From Escherichia phage vB_EcoM_MM02: a stretch of DNA of 64,000 bases. A program made the position numbers and the translations under genes. Location of the stretch: the sequence record MK373784.1, one strand, 5' to 3'. The notes under the pieces are model-generated. The model had not been told where the DNA came from, did no database searches, and saw only the letters and a program-made list of their open reading frames with translations. Of the stretch, positions 13,588 through 60,099 are shown in pieces. Every line of letters begins with the position of its first letter. Position 1 is the stretch's first letter.

Positions 13588-13605
13588 GGGAGACTTCGGT
13601 CTCCC
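13588..13605. terminator. intrinsic terminator between convergent gene 23 and the minus-strand small gene
   Basis: gggagacttcggtctccc followed by T-run. Confidence 0.75.
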
Positions 13606-13615
13606 ATTTTTGGTT

Positions 13616-34927: not shown

Positions 34928-35114
34928 GTTTCAACCCTTTAATAGGAGATAACTCTTTACCCATACGTATGTCAGAAGTCCCATCAACCCATTGAACAGC
35001 ATACGCTTCATTGATAATTCCAGCGGCAGTTTTAAATTCTTTGAGAACTTTAAAAATCATCCCAGGGATTCCAACACCTTTTAATTGGACTGTTTGTGCT
35101 ATTAAAAATTTCAT
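34917..35114 (-). CDS. hypothetical protein
   Basis: 65-aa ORF with ATG start; early promoter at 35139-35169. Confidence 0.5.
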   Translation of the reverse strand: MKFLIAQTVQLKGVGIPGMIFKVLKEFKTAAGIINEAYAVQWVDGTSDIRMGKELSPIKGLKHVE

Positions 35115-35138
35115 ATTTTTCCACTTACTAAAGAAATC

Positions 35139-35169
35139 ATTATACTCTAATCCGTCCTTGGATGTACAC
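35139..35169 (-). promoter_or_regulatory. early promoter for the 34917-35114 gene
   Basis: minus-strand GTGTACATCCAAGGACGGATTAGAGTATAAT. Confidence 0.5.
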
Positions 35170-35783
35170 TACTTAATGAAATTAATTTCTACCGGATGAA
35201 CAACAGGTTGAGCAGTGATATATTGAGTAATTGCTTTCATGACTAGAGCTTCAGAACCAGGATTTTTCTCAACGAATTCACGTGCTAGGTTATGAGCTTC
35301 GAGTTCACTCAATAAACCGGAACGCTGGCATCCACGGTCTTGAGTACCCTGTTCAGATAAAAGGACTACTACATATTTTTCATCGTCGTATGGCTTAGCC
35401 AGTTGAGCAAATGTTCCTTTACTTCCAAAAGGAGAGTTATGTCGCCACATCACGCCGTGAGGAGTTTCAACCTTCGTATATTCGTGCGGTCCATTTTTCT
35501 TAGTTTCTTGATGTGGAACTTCATAGACTTTAGGGTTAGGACATTCAATAAAATGCTCATCTAAATCGGTCGAGAATATTAAAGTAAAACAATTACTGAA
35601 TTTACCAACACCGGCCTGATAAATTTTACCTTCAGAAGTTCTAATTTCACAAACCGAGCCGGCATCAGTAACTTCTAAAACTTCAAAAGGCTCGATAAGG
35701 TCATATGAGAACATGTTTTTAAGGCGTGGAGTAATATCCCCATTTTTAAAATTCATTTTATAAAAAGTATTAACTTTAAACAT
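35169..35783 (-). CDS. hypothetical protein
   Basis: 204 aa from first ATG at 35783 with GAGGAAA ribosome-binding site; the track start at 35813 is TTG and overlaps a terminator hairpin. Confidence 0.6.
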   Translation of the reverse strand: MFKVNTFYKMNFKNGDITPRLKNMFSYDLIEPFEVLEVTDAGSVCEIRTSEGKIYQAGVGKFSNCFTLIFSTDLDEHFIECPNPKVYEVPHQETKKNGPHEYTKVETPHGVMWRHNSPFGSKGTFAQLAKPYDDEKYVVVLLSEQGTQDRGCQRSGLLSELEAHNLAREFVEKNPGSEALVMKAITQYITAQPVVHPVEINFIK

Positions 35784-35795
35784 AATTTCCTCAAT

Positions 35796-35811
35796 GGGAG
35801 CCGAAGCTCCC
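35796..35811 (-). terminator. hairpin between two minus-strand early genes
   Basis: gggagccgaagctccc. Confidence 0.5.
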
Positions 35812-35818
35812 AATTAAT

Positions 35819-36184
35819 TTAGATATCAAATTCGTTAAGAACTACATCAAAGATTGCTTCGAGATGTTCAGGTTTAGCTCGGTTACTCAGGATATGACGA
35901 ATCCAAGATTTAACCAGAAGTTTACGATTAACACCATTCCAGCAAGGATGAGTACCTAAATCACGCTGACGGAAATCATCATCTAATGCAATTTTAAAAT
36001 TTGAACCTTCCATCGTGATTGAAACCGTGATACCATTTTCAAATCGCATATAAACGTAATTAGGAGTCATGCACTGTTCGATTTCACAAACTGTACCGTT
36101 TTCGTGTTTCCATAAGCAAATAACTTCAGAAGAACCAGCAATACCGTTAGAAACATATTTACGTTCGAAGTTGGTGTAGTTCAT
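35819..36184 (-). CDS. hypothetical protein, paralog of the 36259-36627 product (shared CMTP motif)
   Basis: 121-aa ORF; own early promoter at 36225-36254; GGAGAA ribosome-binding site. Confidence 0.6.
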   Translation of the reverse strand: MNYTNFERKYVSNGIAGSSEVICLWKHENGTVCEIEQCMTPNYVYMRFENGITVSITMEGSNFKIALDDDFRQRDLGTHPCWNGVNRKLLVKSWIRHILSNRAKPEHLEAIFDVVLNEFDI

Positions 36185-36224
36185 TTTATTCTCCAGATGT
36201 TTAAGTTGTTTGTTGGTACAGGTC

Positions 36225-36254
36225 TATAATAACATAACCTGTACCAAAGTAAAC
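36225..36254 (-). promoter_or_regulatory. early promoter for the 35819-36184 gene, with inverted repeat flanking the -10
   Basis: minus-strand GTTTACTTTGGTACAGGTTATGTTATTAT; palindrome ggtacaggt / acctgtacc. Confidence 0.55.
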
Positions 36255-36258
36255 TGTT

Positions 36259-36627
36259 TTATGCAACTTTAATCCAATTGTCTAAATTTAAAACACCTTT
36301 GGCTTTCATTTTTTCTATCAGGTTATCTGCTGTAATGCGTCCATTTTGATACCATGTAACATCTTCAGAGTAACCAGTTTCTTCGTCAACATATGTTTCT
36401 GAACGAATTTTACCGGTAATAATAGTTTTTAATTCGTATGTGTCACCTGTGAAAAAGTTTGCTAACACAATTTTCCAAGAGAAATCATCAGAAGGACCTT
36501 CAGGGGTCATACAACCTACGAACTCAAATTGCTCTTTGTATAACATCCACTGGAATTCTTTAATTTCGATAGCTTTATAACCATCGTGGTCTTTACATTT
36601 GATGTATGAGTTCAGATTGATTTTCAT
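36259..36627 (-). CDS. hypothetical protein, paralog of the 35819-36184 product
   Basis: 122-aa ORF; own early promoter at 36670-36698; similar 5' leader. Confidence 0.6.
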   Translation of the reverse strand: MKINLNSYIKCKDHDGYKAIEIKEFQWMLYKEQFEFVGCMTPEGPSDDFSWKIVLANFFTGDTYELKTIITGKIRSETYVDEETGYSEDVTWYQNGRITADNLIEKMKAKGVLNLDNWIKVA

Positions 36628-36669
36628 TTTGTTCTCCAGGTTGTTTTATTGATTAGATGGTACAAGTCT

Positions 36670-36698
36670 ATAGTAACACATCCTACAGGAGAGTAAAC
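36670..36698 (-). promoter_or_regulatory. early promoter for the 36259-36627 gene
   Basis: minus-strand GTTTACTCTCCTGTAGGATGTGTTACTAT. Confidence 0.55.
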
Positions 36699-36734
36699 AT
36701 CTTTTTAAACTTTTTCTGCCCTAAACGCACAAAA

Positions 36735-36752
36735 GGGAGACCGAAGTCTCCC
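36735..36752 (-). terminator. intrinsic terminator after the small basic protein gene
   Basis: minus-strand GGGAGACTTCGGTCTCCC then TTTTGTG. Confidence 0.65.
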
Positions 36753-36757
36753 TAAAA

Positions 36758-36937
36758 TTATGCAACAACCTTTCCAAAACGAGAAGCATCATCTCGAAGA
36801 ACTGCACGTGCTCTGCGCATGATCTTCTCAACTGTTTGATTAATACGAGAGTTCGACCCACGCTTGTATCCAGCGCGTTTAGAGGTACCATCAACTTTCT
36901 TTTCAACTGCTTTCTTTGCTTTAGCTTGTTTTGCCAT
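36758..36937 (-). CDS. small basic Lys/Arg-rich protein (59 aa), not in ORF track
   Basis: ATG at 36937 to TAA at 36758; translation MAKQAKAKKAVEKKVDGTSKRAGYKRGSNSRINQTVEKIMRRARAVLRDDASRFGKVVA; terminator hairpin directly downstream. Confidence 0.5.
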   Translation of the reverse strand: MAKQAKAKKAVEKKVDGTSKRAGYKRGSNSRINQTVEKIMRRARAVLRDDASRFGKVVA

Positions 36938-37232
36938 TATAAATTCTCTTTAAATGAAAATGCAGGACTTATTGACATTGCCTGCGCAAGCCCTCAAGGG
37001 GAACATAGGTTTTGGATATTTAACGACAGGATAACCATAAACCCGTCATCATACCAACCACGACTTAGACAGATAACCTTTTTCTGACGCGTGATAGTAC
37101 AAAATACATTCAAGAGGTACACCGTAAAACTGCCGGGGCCTTAAAACTATAATGATTCGCAAATCATTAATCAGACAGTTCGACGGCTCCTCGATTTTCT
37201 AGCCGCACTTAAGGTAGCGAATCACCTAAAAC

Positions 37233-37481
37233 TTATTTAAGGGTAATAACAAAATGACGTACTGCTTTACGAGCTGCAGAAGCCAAAGGCTTAGCATATT
37301 TCAGTTCATCTTTTGCTTCCAGTTCAGAGGCCAAAGCTGCCTGTACCGGGTTCAGATGTTTGAAATAATGCAGGATTTCCAGTGCTTCGGCTTCAACATC
37401 AATCGACGCGCCGTAGTTTTCGTGACCGTTATTCCATGCGTTTCGTTGCAGTTCAAGAGCGTGTTGTAATTGTTTAATCAT
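37233..37481 (-). CDS. rIII: rIII lysis inhibition accessory protein
   Basis: 82 aa, same length as T4 RIII; N-terminus MIKQLQHALELQRNAWNNGHENYG matches my recollection of T4 RIII. Confidence 0.85.
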   Translation of the reverse strand: MIKQLQHALELQRNAWNNGHENYGASIDVEAEALEILHYFKHLNPVQAALASELEAKDELKYAKPLASAARKAVRHFVITLK

Positions 37482-37605
37482 TTTAAATTCTCAATTCGAG
37501 ATAATATTTAGTAGCCACGTTCGTCTGAATTTCACCTTCTTTCGACAAGTCTCTCAGTTGTAGGCTACCGCTTAGAAGAGTGTTCTCTTCATATAGTTAT
37601 TTATA

Positions 37606-40272: not shown

Positions 40273-40284
40273 TGTTGTAAACCA

Positions 40285-44969: not shown

Positions 44970-44999
44970 ATTGTACCACAATCCTTGTGGTATGTAAAC
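44970..44999 (-). promoter_or_regulatory. early promoter for rnlA
   Basis: minus-strand GTTTACATACCACAAGGATTGTGGTACAAT. Confidence 0.55.
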
Positions 45000-50955: not shown

Positions 50956-51204
50956 TTATTTCCTCAGATTTTTCTTAACAACTTTCCAATCAACTTTAAA
51001 CGATTCAACATCAGAGTGGTGAATCCAGAATCCTGCACTTTCACCATCTTCGTAGAGTGGACATCCATCACATTCTTCGTTCCAACCCATTTCACGTAAA
51101 GCTTCTTCAGCTTGTTCAAGGAGTTCAGCGTCTTTACCGACGATGTTGAAGTACCATTTACCTCTAACTTCAGAATCTTTGATGCTCTGTCGTTGCAATC
51201 TCAT
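50956..51204 (-). CDS. hypothetical protein (frd.2-like position)
   Basis: 83 aa from ATG at 51204 with GAAGGAGA ribosome-binding site; the longer track ORF overlaps its own promoter. Confidence 0.5.
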   Translation of the reverse strand: MRLQRQSIKDSEVRGKWYFNIVGKDAELLEQAEEALREMGWNEECDGCPLYEDGESAGFWIHHSDVESFKVDWKVVKKNLRK

Positions 51205-51227
51205 TTTATTCTCCTTCACTTTTGATT

Positions 51228-51688: not shown

Positions 51689-51717
51689 ATACTAACACAT
51701 CCAGGGAAGAAGTAAAC
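51689..51717 (-). promoter_or_regulatory. early promoter for the 51267-51659 gene
   Basis: minus-strand GTTTACTTCTTCCCTGGATGTGTTAGTAT, then leader CAACAACATGAGGAAA. Confidence 0.6.
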
Positions 51718-51748
51718 AACTTTTTCGGCAATTTACAGATACTCAAAA

Positions 51749-51766
51749 GGGAGACCGAAGTCTCCC
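51749..51766 (-). terminator. intrinsic terminator after gene 32
   Basis: minus-strand GGGAGACTTCGGTCTCCC then TTTTGAG. Confidence 0.7.
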
Positions 51767-60074: not shown

Positions 60075-60092
60075 GGGAGACTTCGGTCTCCC
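60075..60092 (+). terminator. intrinsic terminator after gene 35
   Basis: gggagacttcggtctccc followed by atttttg. Confidence 0.7.
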
Positions 60093-60099
60093 ATTTTTG

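What the first reader, a model, noticed from the sequence alone, without database searches (positions are those of the whole stretch)
35819..36700. Tandem duplicated early cassette: two paralogous genes each with its own promoter and leader
The adjacent 121-aa and 122-aa proteins share an internal CMTP-containing motif (EIEQCMTPNYVYMRF versus EFVGCMTPEGPSDDF) and similar size. Each is preceded by a near-identical early promoter (tatagacctgtacca versus tatagacttgtacca around the -10) and a similar leader (GGAGAA ribosome-binding site). This looks like a duplicated and diverged promoter-gene module, a pattern often seen in genes under host-driven selection.
Basis: seen in the sequence. Interest (0 to 1): 0.4.

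Follow-up and report, generated by a model that had tools for sequence, protein, structure and literature searches.

The report
Unrelated early genes sharing promoter cassettes
Two neighbouring small genes of a T4-like phage are not copies of each other: they are the known, unrelated T4 early genes 30.8 and 30.7. What is repeated is only the roughly 75-base early promoter and leader cassette in front of each, an ordinary and already described feature of these phages.

Summary
The window is a Mosigvirus (T4-like; 99.8% identical to vB_EcoM_WFK).

The two ORFs are not paralogues. They are the syntenic orthologues of T4 genes 30.7 (PF06919) and 30.8 (PF06019).
- BLASTP finds only the 8-residue CMTP patch (E=0.2).
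- Profile-profile probability is 0.08%.
- Predicted folds differ, and reciprocal Foldseek searches hit only each protein's own family.
- CMTP is not conserved in the 30.7 family (T4 has YMTP; distant members have YWED).

The regulatory part is a real repeat of about 75 nt at 74-75% identity, spaced 443-444 nt. Each copy is a T4-type early promoter (GTTTAC-N17-TAYTAT) plus a leader ending in a RegB/S1-type site (GGAGAAYAAAATG). At least nine other such promoters lie in the window. This pair is the most alike (rank 1 of 55) and shares a motif specific to this locus.

In related phages the 30.8 ORF has been swapped as a module, with junctions in these cassettes. The 30.7 promoter sits inside a hairpin kept with unrelated stems in different lineages. 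Both features match the published PeSL cassettes of T4-type phages.

Protein functions remain unknown. Verdict: ordinary and already known.

The parts
36731..36752 (-). Intrinsic terminator after gene 30.9 (GGGAGAC-UUCG-GUCUCCC followed by UUUU). It is the upstream stem-loop of the 30.8 cassette.
   Evidence: Sequence. Exact pattern match, one of 4 copies in the window. Annotated as a terminator in the 99.8% identical phage WFK.
36623..36698 (-). 30.8 promoter-leader cassette. The -35 GTTTAC is at 36693-36698, followed by a 17-nt spacer and the -10 TACTAT at 36670-36675. A leader of about 32 nt ends in the SD/RegB-type site GGAGAACAAAA plus ATG at 36625-36637.
   Evidence: T4 30.8 is early at both RNA and protein level (PMC9697503 supplement).
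36259..36627 (-). Gene 30.8 orthologue, 122 aa, function unknown. It is beta-rich with one C-terminal helix.
   Evidence: PF06019 E=6.7e-44. phrog_1507. AF2 pLDDT 94.6. No PDB match by fold or by sequence.
36180..36254 (-). 30.7 promoter-leader cassette. The -35 GTTTAC is at 36249-36254, only 4 nt after the 30.8 stop codon, followed by a 17-nt spacer and the -10 TATTAT at 36226-36231. The SD/RegB consensus GGAGAATAAAA plus ATG is at 36182-36194.
   Evidence: The SD of T4 30.7 mRNA is an experimentally used RegB target (PMC9409239).
36215..36245 (-). Hairpin enclosing the -10 of the 30.7 promoter: GGTACAGGT, a 13-nt loop containing TATTAT, then ACCTGTACC.
   Evidence: MFE -17.9 kcal/mol, z -4.6 to -5.9. 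Present in T4. Kept with at least 6 unrelated stem sequences in other lineages, z -4 to -8.
35819..36184 (-). Gene 30.7 orthologue, 121 aa, function unknown. It has seven short beta strands followed by three helices.
   Evidence: PF06919 E=3.1e-51. phrog_1582. AF2 pLDDT 84. Foldseek hits only its own family.
35795..35812 (-). GC-rich UUCG hairpin directly after the 30.7 stop codon and directly before the SD of the next gene. It has no U-run.
   Evidence: Annotated as a terminator in WFK. Similarity to other lineages ends here.

Best explanation
These are two unrelated, conserved immediate-early accessory genes, the orthologues of T4 30.8 and 30.7. Each sits in its own copy of the standard T4-type early expression cassette.

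The cassette has four parts, in order:
1. A stem-loop that insulates it from upstream transcription. For 30.8 this is a separate terminator. For 30.7 it is a hairpin superimposed on the -10 element, because that promoter starts 4 nt after the 30.8 stop codon.
2. A strong sigma-70 early promoter, GTTTAC-N17-TAYTAT.
3. A leader of about 30 nt.
4. A Shine-Dalgarno sequence that doubles as a RegB/S1 cleavage site, GGAGAAYAAAA.

How it works. Shown in T4 and inferred here: host RNA polymerase fires both promoters immediately after infection, both proteins are made early, and RegB then cuts within the GGAG to shut translation off. Inferred: the hairpin forms only in read-through RNA from the 30.8 promoter, where it attenuates transcription or caps the 3' end. 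Transcripts started at the 30.7 promoter lack its 5' arm.

Why the cassettes resemble each other. They belong to one family of regulatory elements (PeSL-type cassettes). In addition, neighbouring copies recombine or convert each other. The same cassettes act as homologous linkers through which ORFs are exchanged between phages. The coding sequences themselves share no ancestry. What the two proteins do is unknown; the guess is non-essential host-takeover or host-adaptation factors.
For: Gene identity and synteny.
- PF06919 and PF06019 score far above their cut-offs.
- The order 30.9 > 30.8 > 30.7 is the same as in T4.
- 769 phage records match the region.

No homology between the two proteins: and the family alignments. 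There is no other copy of either gene in the window.

Promoter class.
- Eleven minus-strand GTTTAC-N17/18-TAnnAT promoters lie in the window, sharing extended consensus.
- The Hinton review describes T4 early promoters as having extra consensus regions (PMC2988021).
- T4 30.7 and 30.8 are early at RNA and protein level (PMC9697503 supplement).

RegB.
- Both SDs fit GGAGRAYARAA, and 30.7 equals the T4 optimum GGAGAAUAAAA (PMC1702504).
- T4 30.7 mRNA is a known RegB substrate (PMC9409239).
- A RegB homologue is present in a phage 99.7% identical to the window over the 2.4-kb query around this locus.

Relatedness of the cassettes beyond class.
- The pair ranks 1 of 55.
- The repeats stop at the ATG.
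- TATAGACYTGTACCA is found only at this locus in whole T4-like genomes.
- Within-genome identity is 0.75 here and 0.80-0.83 in the L004-L008 group (L008 has the genome length I recall for phage JS98). Within that group the two cassettes read almost identically from the -10 to the ATG (about 48 of 50 nt, counted by eye). The cross-genome baseline is 0.64 +/- 0.06.
- The window's 30.8 cassette is closer to its own 30.7 cassette (0.75) than to T4's orthologous 30.8 cassette (0.59).

Modular exchange. L007 and L005 are 97-100% identical except across the 30.8 ORF, where identity falls to 40-60%.

Hairpin.
- z is -4 to -8 with six unrelated stem types, and mismatches are G.U on the sense strand.
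- Stem-loops overlapping the -10 or lying in the spacer are described PeSL subclasses (PMC2839356).
Against: - No transcription start, RegB cut or termination was measured in this phage. All functional steps are transferred from T4, RB49 and phi1.
- The excess similarity of the pair over the class baseline is moderate in the window (z about 3 among 55 pairs). T4's own pair sits at baseline (0.62). So either homogenisation is lineage-specific, or T4 replaced its 30.8 cassette.
- The 30.7 hairpin lacks a U-run, so it is not a canonical intrinsic terminator.
- The two AF2 models could not be superposed directly. Foldseek lists show only the top 50 hits.
- Neither protein has a known function, so the 'accessory host-takeover' label is a guess from timing and genomic location.
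Confidence: 0.85

Rival explanations
1. An ancestral promoter-gene module was tandemly duplicated, and the two genes are diverged paralogues under host-driven selection.
For: - The two ORFs are the same size (121 and 122 aa) and share a CMTP tetrapeptide at the same position.
- A positional 4-mer match arises in only 0.6% of shuffles.
- Both predicted proteins are beta-rich with a C-terminal helix.
- The regulatory cassettes really are repeated.
Against: - BLASTP E=0.2 over 8 residues.
- hhalign probability 0.08%.
- Neither homologue search recovers the other family.
- The families are separate in Pfam and PHROGs.
- CMTP is confined to the window's own clade within the 30.7 family (T4 has YMTP, distant members YWED), and T4's 30.8 has VETT, so the match is not ancestral.
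- The number and length of strands and helices differ.
- Reciprocal Foldseek searches give no cross-family hit.
- The DNA repeat ends at the ATG.
Confidence: 0.03
2. The two cassettes look alike only because every T4-type early promoter and leader follows the same extended consensus. There is no special relationship, duplication or gene conversion between these two copies.
For: - Eleven early promoters in the window share GTTTAC, tgtTACTATagac and A/C-rich leaders.
- Some other pairs reach 0.78 identity in the block from the -10 downstream.
- T4's own 30.8/30.7 pair is at the cross-genome baseline, 0.62 against 0.64.
Against: - The pair ranks first of 55, and it is also a physically adjacent pair.
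- The shared AGACYTGTACCA is found at no other promoter in the window, and nowhere else in whole T4-like genomes.
- In the L004-L008 group (L008 has the genome length I recall for phage JS98) the two cassettes read almost identically from the -10 to the ATG, about 48 of 50 nt by eye.
- L030 shows the motif in both cassettes although its genes lie 1 kb apart.
Confidence: 0.12
3. The palindrome around the -10 of the 30.7 promoter is a DNA operator for a dimeric phage or host repressor that shuts off early transcription. It is not an RNA hairpin.
For: - It is a perfect 9-bp inverted repeat centred on the -10 element.
- The mechanism of T4 early-promoter shut-off is still unknown (PMC2988021).
Against: - The stem sequence differs completely between lineages, with six types. 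It also differs between promoters of the same genome: 36254 has GGTACAGGT and 40282 has GGTAGAGTT. That is incompatible with one sequence-specific binding protein.
- Mismatches are G.U on the sense strand only, which points to RNA.
- Most early promoters lack the palindrome.
Confidence: 0.04

Closest known systems
Bacteriophage T4 genes 30.7 and 30.8 (Pfam PF06919 Phage_T4_Gp30_7 and PF06019 Phage_30_8)
   Same: - Same families and same gene order between 30.9/rIII and the DNA ligase cluster.
- Same strand, similar lengths, and an early promoter in front of each.
- The 30.7 protein is 92% identical to T4's.
   Different: - The window's 30.8 is only about 37% identical to T4's. It belongs to the majority allele, which carries the conserved CMTPEGPSDDF loop that T4 lacks.
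- The 30.8 promoter/leader is a different version from T4's, with 0.59 identity.
- The gene after 30.7 is not 30.6.
PeSL (promoter-early stem-loop) regulatory cassettes of T4-type phages (Arbiol et al. 2010, PMC2839356; Comeau et al. 2014, PMC4122927)
   Same: - The composite has the same layout: upstream stop codon, AT-rich stretch, early promoter, stem-loop, SD and start codon.
- The stem-loop is either upstream of the promoter (30.8) or overlaps the -10 (30.7), both described subclasses.
- The promoter consensus TTTACW-N17-TAYWAT given for the PST/T4 pair fits.
- The cassettes flank an ORF that is replaced between near-identical phages.
   Different: - Mini-circle formation and terminator activity were not tested here.
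- The stems are not the G-run/C-run type of RB49 and phi1.
- This particular locus is not, to my knowledge, one of the published examples.
RegB/S1 cleavage sites in the Shine-Dalgarno sequences of T4 early mRNAs (Durand et al. 2006, PMC1702504)
   Same: Both SDs match the 11-nt consensus GGAGRAYARAA, and the 30.7 site equals the T4 optimum GGAGAAUAAAA. The T4 30.7 transcript is a documented substrate.
   Different: Cleavage was not measured in this phage. Its lineage's RegB is 77% identical to T4 RegB.
T4 promoters embedded in hairpins that sequester a ribosome-binding site in read-through transcripts (gene e lysozyme, I-TevI, gene 49). Recalled from the T4 literature, not checked here.
   Same: A promoter lies inside a hairpin, so only transcripts started upstream contain both arms. 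In some relatives (L016, L018, L026, L032, L033) the 3' arm covers the 30.7 SD.
   Different: In the window the 3' arm ends about 20 nt upstream of the SD, so it does not sequester it. The embedded promoter is early rather than late or middle.

Membership tests
Tandem paralogue pair (duplicated gene module) | Significant pairwise sequence similarity between the two proteins | tested here: not met
   BLASTP finds one 8-residue segment, E=0.2. tblastn of each protein against the window finds only itself.
Tandem paralogue pair (duplicated gene module) | Family-profile similarity (remote homology) | tested here: not met
   hhalign of the 19-sequence and 29-sequence alignments gives probability 0.08%, E=0.65. 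Neither homologue search returns the other family.
Tandem paralogue pair (duplicated gene module) | Shared predicted fold | tested here: not met
   The secondary-structure elements differ. Foldseek against BFVD in both directions finds only each protein's own family among significant hits. Direct superposition was not possible.
Pfam PF06919 (T4 Gp30.7) and PF06019 (T4 Gp30.8) | Score above the curated gathering threshold over the full length | tested here: met
   172.5 bits against a cut-off of 27, and 149.2 bits against a cut-off of 25, both full length.
Pfam PF06919 (T4 Gp30.7) and PF06019 (T4 Gp30.8) | Conserved position between rIII/30.9 and the ligase gene cluster | tested here: met
   T4 annotation compared with the window ORFs and the WFK annotation.
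T4-type early promoter | A -35 GTTTAC, a 17 +/- 1 nt spacer, a -10 TAnnAT, and an A/T-rich upstream region | tested here: met
   Both promoters read GTTTAC-N17-TAYTAT, with aaaaagtttaaaaagat or gcataaaaca upstream.
T4-type early promoter | Transcription immediately after infection, independent of phage protein synthesis | not testable with these tools
   Only indirect evidence is available: T4 30.7 and 30.8 are classed early at RNA and protein level (PMC9697503 supplement).
PeSL regulatory cassette | Early promoter combined with a stable stem-loop adjacent to or overlapping it, ending in an SD and start codon | tested here: met
   The 30.8 cassette has an upstream terminator at 36731-36752. 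The 30.7 cassette has a hairpin enclosing the -10, z -5.9. The subclasses are described in PMC2839356.
PeSL regulatory cassette | Association with insertion, deletion or replacement of ORFs between closely related phages | tested here: met
   In L007 against L005 only the 30.8 ORF is replaced, with junctions in the two cassettes. 30.8 and 30.7 are separated by inserted genes in other lineages, with gaps of 950-1500 nt.
PeSL regulatory cassette | Recombination between flanking cassettes producing deletions or mini-circles, and terminator activity of the stem-loop | not testable with these tools
   This needs inverse PCR and reporter assays.
RegB/S1 target site | An 11-nt sequence GGAGRAYARAA in an intergenic or SD position | tested here: met
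   GGAGAATAAAA and GGAGAACAAAA are present, with 3 matches in the window against 0 expected. The consensus comes from PMC1702504.
RegB/S1 target site | The site is single-stranded, and RegB is encoded by the phage | tested here: inconclusive
   The SD is unpaired in the fold of the 30.7 leader. In the 30.8 fold, GGAGA pairs with TCTCC, which lies upstream of the expected transcription start. A RegB homologue is present in a phage 99.7% identical to the window over the 2.4-kb query around this locus, but it lies outside the window.

The most novel reading that the evidence does not exclude
The two near-repeat cassettes make 30.8 an actively exchanged slot. Two deeply divergent 30.8 alleles (37-39% amino-acid identity) circulate on otherwise 97-100% identical backbones, possibly maintained by host-defence-driven selection. 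Separately, the hairpin enclosing the -10 is an RNA-level insulator whose stems have been replaced at least six times while its position was kept. Both points would extend the PeSL model with a documented natural allele swap and with covariation-type evidence for the stem-loop's function.
Probability: 0.35. Interest if true: 0.3.

Novelty: already known. Interest (0 to 1): 0.12.

Why it matters
It matters mainly as a correction. Adjacent small phage genes with look-alike upstream regions should not be read as gene duplicates, because in T4-type phages the regulatory cassette is itself the repeated and mobile unit.

The locus is a clean natural illustration of cassette-bounded ORF exchange: two 30.8 alleles on near-identical backbones. 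It also shows a promoter-embedded hairpin conserved in structure but not in sequence. Both could serve as test cases for the PeSL shuffling model.

The two proteins remain uncharacterised early proteins. No known fold was found for gp30.8 (the gp30.7 model was not searched against solved structures), and they are candidates for host-takeover or counter-defence screens. Nothing here singles them out from the many other T4 early ORFs.

Tried and rejected
- Paralogy of the two proteins was tested by BLASTP, profile-profile comparison, two large homologue searches, AF2 models and reciprocal Foldseek. All were negative.
- Function by homology gave nothing. Pfam and PHROGs give only 'unknown function' families. 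NCBIfam found nothing. The PDB profile search found nothing significant. Foldseek of the gp30.8 model against the PDB had a best E of 0.56.
- Rfam on 35000-37600 returned only two far-sub-threshold hits on terminator hairpins.
- Literature searches for gp30.7 or gp30.8 function found no functional study. The key transcript-mapping paper (Truncaite et al. 2006, Virology 344:378) is not held and is cited only through papers that cite it.
- A collection-wide scan for the 15-mer motif mostly returned chance hits in unrelated contigs. It was useful only for showing one locus per T4-like genome.
- The generic sigma-70 scan is uninformative here, with 23 sites found against 21.5 expected. The T4-specific pattern was used instead.
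- A single-structure covariation count on the 30.7 hairpin was not attempted. The stems of different lineages are non-homologous and out of register by 2-3 nt, so per-lineage z-scores were used instead.
- The operator (DNA-binding palindrome) reading was rejected because the stems differ between promoters and between lineages.

Full report
WHAT THE WINDOW IS. The 2.4 kb around the finding is 99.8% identical to Escherichia phage vB_EcoM_WFK, a Mosigvirus in Tevenvirinae, and matches 769 phage records. All genes here are on the minus strand. By comparison with the T4 record, the order is 31 > rIII > 30.9 > 30.8 > 30.7.

CHECK OF THE OBSERVATION.
- The 121-aa ORF is at 35819-36184 and contains EIEQCMTPNYVYMRF. 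The 122-aa ORF is at 36259-36627 and contains EFVGCMTPEGPSDDF.
- The -10 regions with flanks are TATTATAGACCTGTACCA (36214-36231) and TACTATAGACTTGTACCA (36658-36675).
- The ribosome-binding sites are GGAGAATAAAATG and GGAGAACAAAATG.
- The repeat finder reports direct repeats of 57 nt (74%) and 32 nt (75%), spaced 444 and 443 nt. Together they run from the -35 element to the ATG and stop there.

ARE THE PROTEINS RELATED? No.
- BLASTP aligns only 8 residues around CMTP, E=0.2.
- The proteins fall into different curated families: PF06919 (Gp30.7, 172 bits) and PF06019 (Gp30.8, 149 bits), or phrog_1582 and phrog_1507.
- Two searches of 5.8 billion proteins each recover only the query's own family. 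A profile-profile comparison of the two family alignments gives probability 0.08%.
- The alignments show the CMTP match is not ancestral. In the 30.7 family the Cys is confined to the window's closest relatives, T4 reads YMTP, and distant members read YWED. In the 30.8 family CMTPEG is nearly invariant, but T4 itself reads VETTEG.
- A shared tetrapeptide occurs somewhere in 13% of shuffled pairs, and at a matching position in 0.6%. That is unremarkable for a pair picked out by eye.
- The AF2 models are confident (pLDDT 84 and 94.6) and differ. gp30.7 has seven short strands followed by three helices. gp30.8 has long beta-hairpins, one helix and two terminal strands.
- Foldseek against BFVD, run in both directions, returns only each protein's own family at significant E-values.
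Neither gene has another copy in the window.

WHAT THE REPEATED PART IS. Both upstream regions are T4-type early promoters, GTTTAC-N17-TAYTAT. A T4-specific pattern search finds eleven such promoters on the minus strand of the window. They share extended consensus such as tgtTACTATagac and A/C-rich leaders. This agrees with the description of T4 early promoters as having consensus beyond the sigma-70 elements (PMC2988021). T4 30.7 and 30.8 are classed early at RNA and protein level (PMC9697503 supplement).

The 'GGAGAA' ribosome-binding sites are matches to the 11-nt RegB/S1 target GGAGRAYARAA. The 30.7 site equals the T4 optimum GGAGAAUAAAA (PMC1702504). The T4 30.7 SD is a standard RegB substrate (PMC9409239, citing Truncaite et al. 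2006, which I could not read). A RegB homologue 77% identical to T4's is encoded by vB_EcoM_WFL6982, which is 99.7% identical to the window over the 2.4-kb query around this locus.

IS THE PAIR MORE ALIKE THAN THE CLASS REQUIRES? Moderately, yes.
- Among the 55 pairs of window early promoters this pair ranks first, 0.67 against 0.47 +/- 0.06.
- The shared AGACYTGTACCA is found at no other promoter in the window. In complete T4-like genomes of IMG/VR it occurs only at this locus.
- Across 31 distinct related loci, within-genome identity of the two cassettes is 0.75 in the window and 0.80-0.83 in the L004-L008 group. In that group the two cassettes read almost identically from the -10 to the ATG (about 48 of 50 nt, counted by eye). 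L008 has the genome length I recall for phage JS98.
- T4's pair is at 0.62, on the cross-genome baseline of 0.64 +/- 0.06.
- The window's 30.8 cassette resembles its neighbour (0.75) more than T4's orthologous cassette (0.59).
- So the regulatory cassettes are homologous repeats that have been homogenised or exchanged in some lineages.

MODULAR EXCHANGE. L007 and L005 are 97-100% identical over 1.5 kb except across the 30.8 ORF, where identity drops to 40-60%. That stretch is alignment columns 450-840, with the ATG at column 457 and the stop at column 829. L007 carries the window-type allele (88% amino-acid identity to the window). L005 carries the T4-type allele (39%). The junctions lie at the SD/ATG of 30.8 and inside the 30.7 promoter. 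In more distant phages one or more genes are inserted between 30.8 and 30.7, giving gaps of 950-1500 nt, and each gene keeps its own cassette.

THE HAIRPIN AT THE 30.7 PROMOTER. The -35 element starts 4 nt after the 30.8 stop codon. A perfect 9-bp inverted repeat, GGTACAGGT and ACCTGTACC, encloses the -10 element (36215-36245; -17.9 kcal/mol, z about -5 to -6). T4 has it too. Other lineages keep a hairpin in the same place with unrelated stems:
- GGTGAGGGTCT / AGACTCTCACC
- GCTGATTGAGTGTG / TACACTCAATCAGC
- GGTGTAGGAGTA / TACTCTTACACC
- CTCCGTTGTAT / ATACAACGGAG
- GGGTGGT / ACCACCC

Their z-scores are -4 to -8. Where the arms mismatch, the pair is G.U on the sense strand, which points to an RNA-level structure.

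In the window, the promoter whose -35 starts at 40282 has the same architecture (z -6.2). The 30.8 promoter and the promoter at 51717 instead have a separate upstream terminator with the identical sequence GGGAGACTTCGGTCTCCCTTTT.

[quoted passage not shown] PeSLs act as promoter and attenuator and as recombination linkers for ORF shuffling (PMC2839356; PMC4122927).

MECHANISM.
- Shown in T4: early transcription of both genes and RegB cleavage of the 30.7 SD.
- Inferred here: sigma-70 RNA polymerase fires both promoters at once, the proteins are made in the first minutes, and RegB/S1 cuts GGAG to end translation.
- Inferred here: the terminator before the 30.8 promoter and the hairpin over the 30.7 promoter limit or cap read-through RNA, so each ORF is an insulated unit. 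Transcripts starting at the 30.7 promoter lack the 5' arm, so they are unstructured.
- Inferred here: the cassettes also provide the short homologies through which ORFs are swapped.
- The proteins' functions are unknown. There is no PDB, NCBIfam or literature lead. My guess is non-essential host-takeover or adaptation factors.

VERDICT. The paralogy interpretation is refuted. The regulatory-cassette repeat is real and is an instance of a published phenomenon in a well-known T4 locus. It is already known and of low interest.

Noticed in passing
L007 compared with L005 (IMGVR_UViG_2974735671_000001 and IMGVR_UViG_2974497520_000001), the region homologous to window 36180-36700: Gene 30.8 exists as two deeply divergent alleles (37-39% amino-acid identity) on backbones that are otherwise 97-100% identical. 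The exchange junctions lie in the two promoter cassettes. The T4-type allele lacks the conserved CMTPEGPSDDF loop of the family.
   Followed up: partly
window 36215-36245 (-); also the promoter with its -35 at 40282 (-), and the promoter spacers at 44999, 43816 and 29337 (-): A hairpin enclosing the -10 of an early promoter is conserved in position but has at least six unrelated stem sequences across lineages, with G.U mismatches on the sense strand. A second example in the window is GGTAGAGTT/AACTCTACC. Three other promoters have small palindromes inside the spacer, for example ACACCAaggaTGGTGT.
   Followed up: partly
window 36731-36752 (-), 51745-51766 (-), 13588-13609 (+), 60075-60096 (+): There are four copies of the same UUCG-tetraloop terminator, GGGAGACTTCGGTCTCCC followed by (T/A)TTT. 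The two minus-strand copies each sit just upstream of an early promoter.
   Followed up: no
window 36688-36692 paired with 36633-36637 (-); L016, L018, L026, L032, L033 upstream of 30.7: The start of the 30.8 promoter spacer (TCTCC) is complementary to its own SD (GGAGA) in many lineages. In some relatives the 3' arm of the 30.7 hairpin (ATACAACGGAG) covers the SD. This pairing could hide the SD and RegB site only in read-through transcripts. The z-scores are modest (-1.5 to -3.9).
   Followed up: no
window 35169-35783 (-) and the hairpin at 35795-35812: The gene following 30.7 is a 204-aa protein (phrog_17531) that did not match Pfam. T4 has 30.6 at this position. Similarity to all other lineages examined stops right after the 30.7 stop codon and hairpin, which suggests another module replacement.
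   Followed up: no
window 51202-51214 (-): This is a third exact copy of the optimal RegB-type start region GGAGAATAAAATG, in front of another minus-strand gene downstream of the early promoter at 51717.
   Followed up: no
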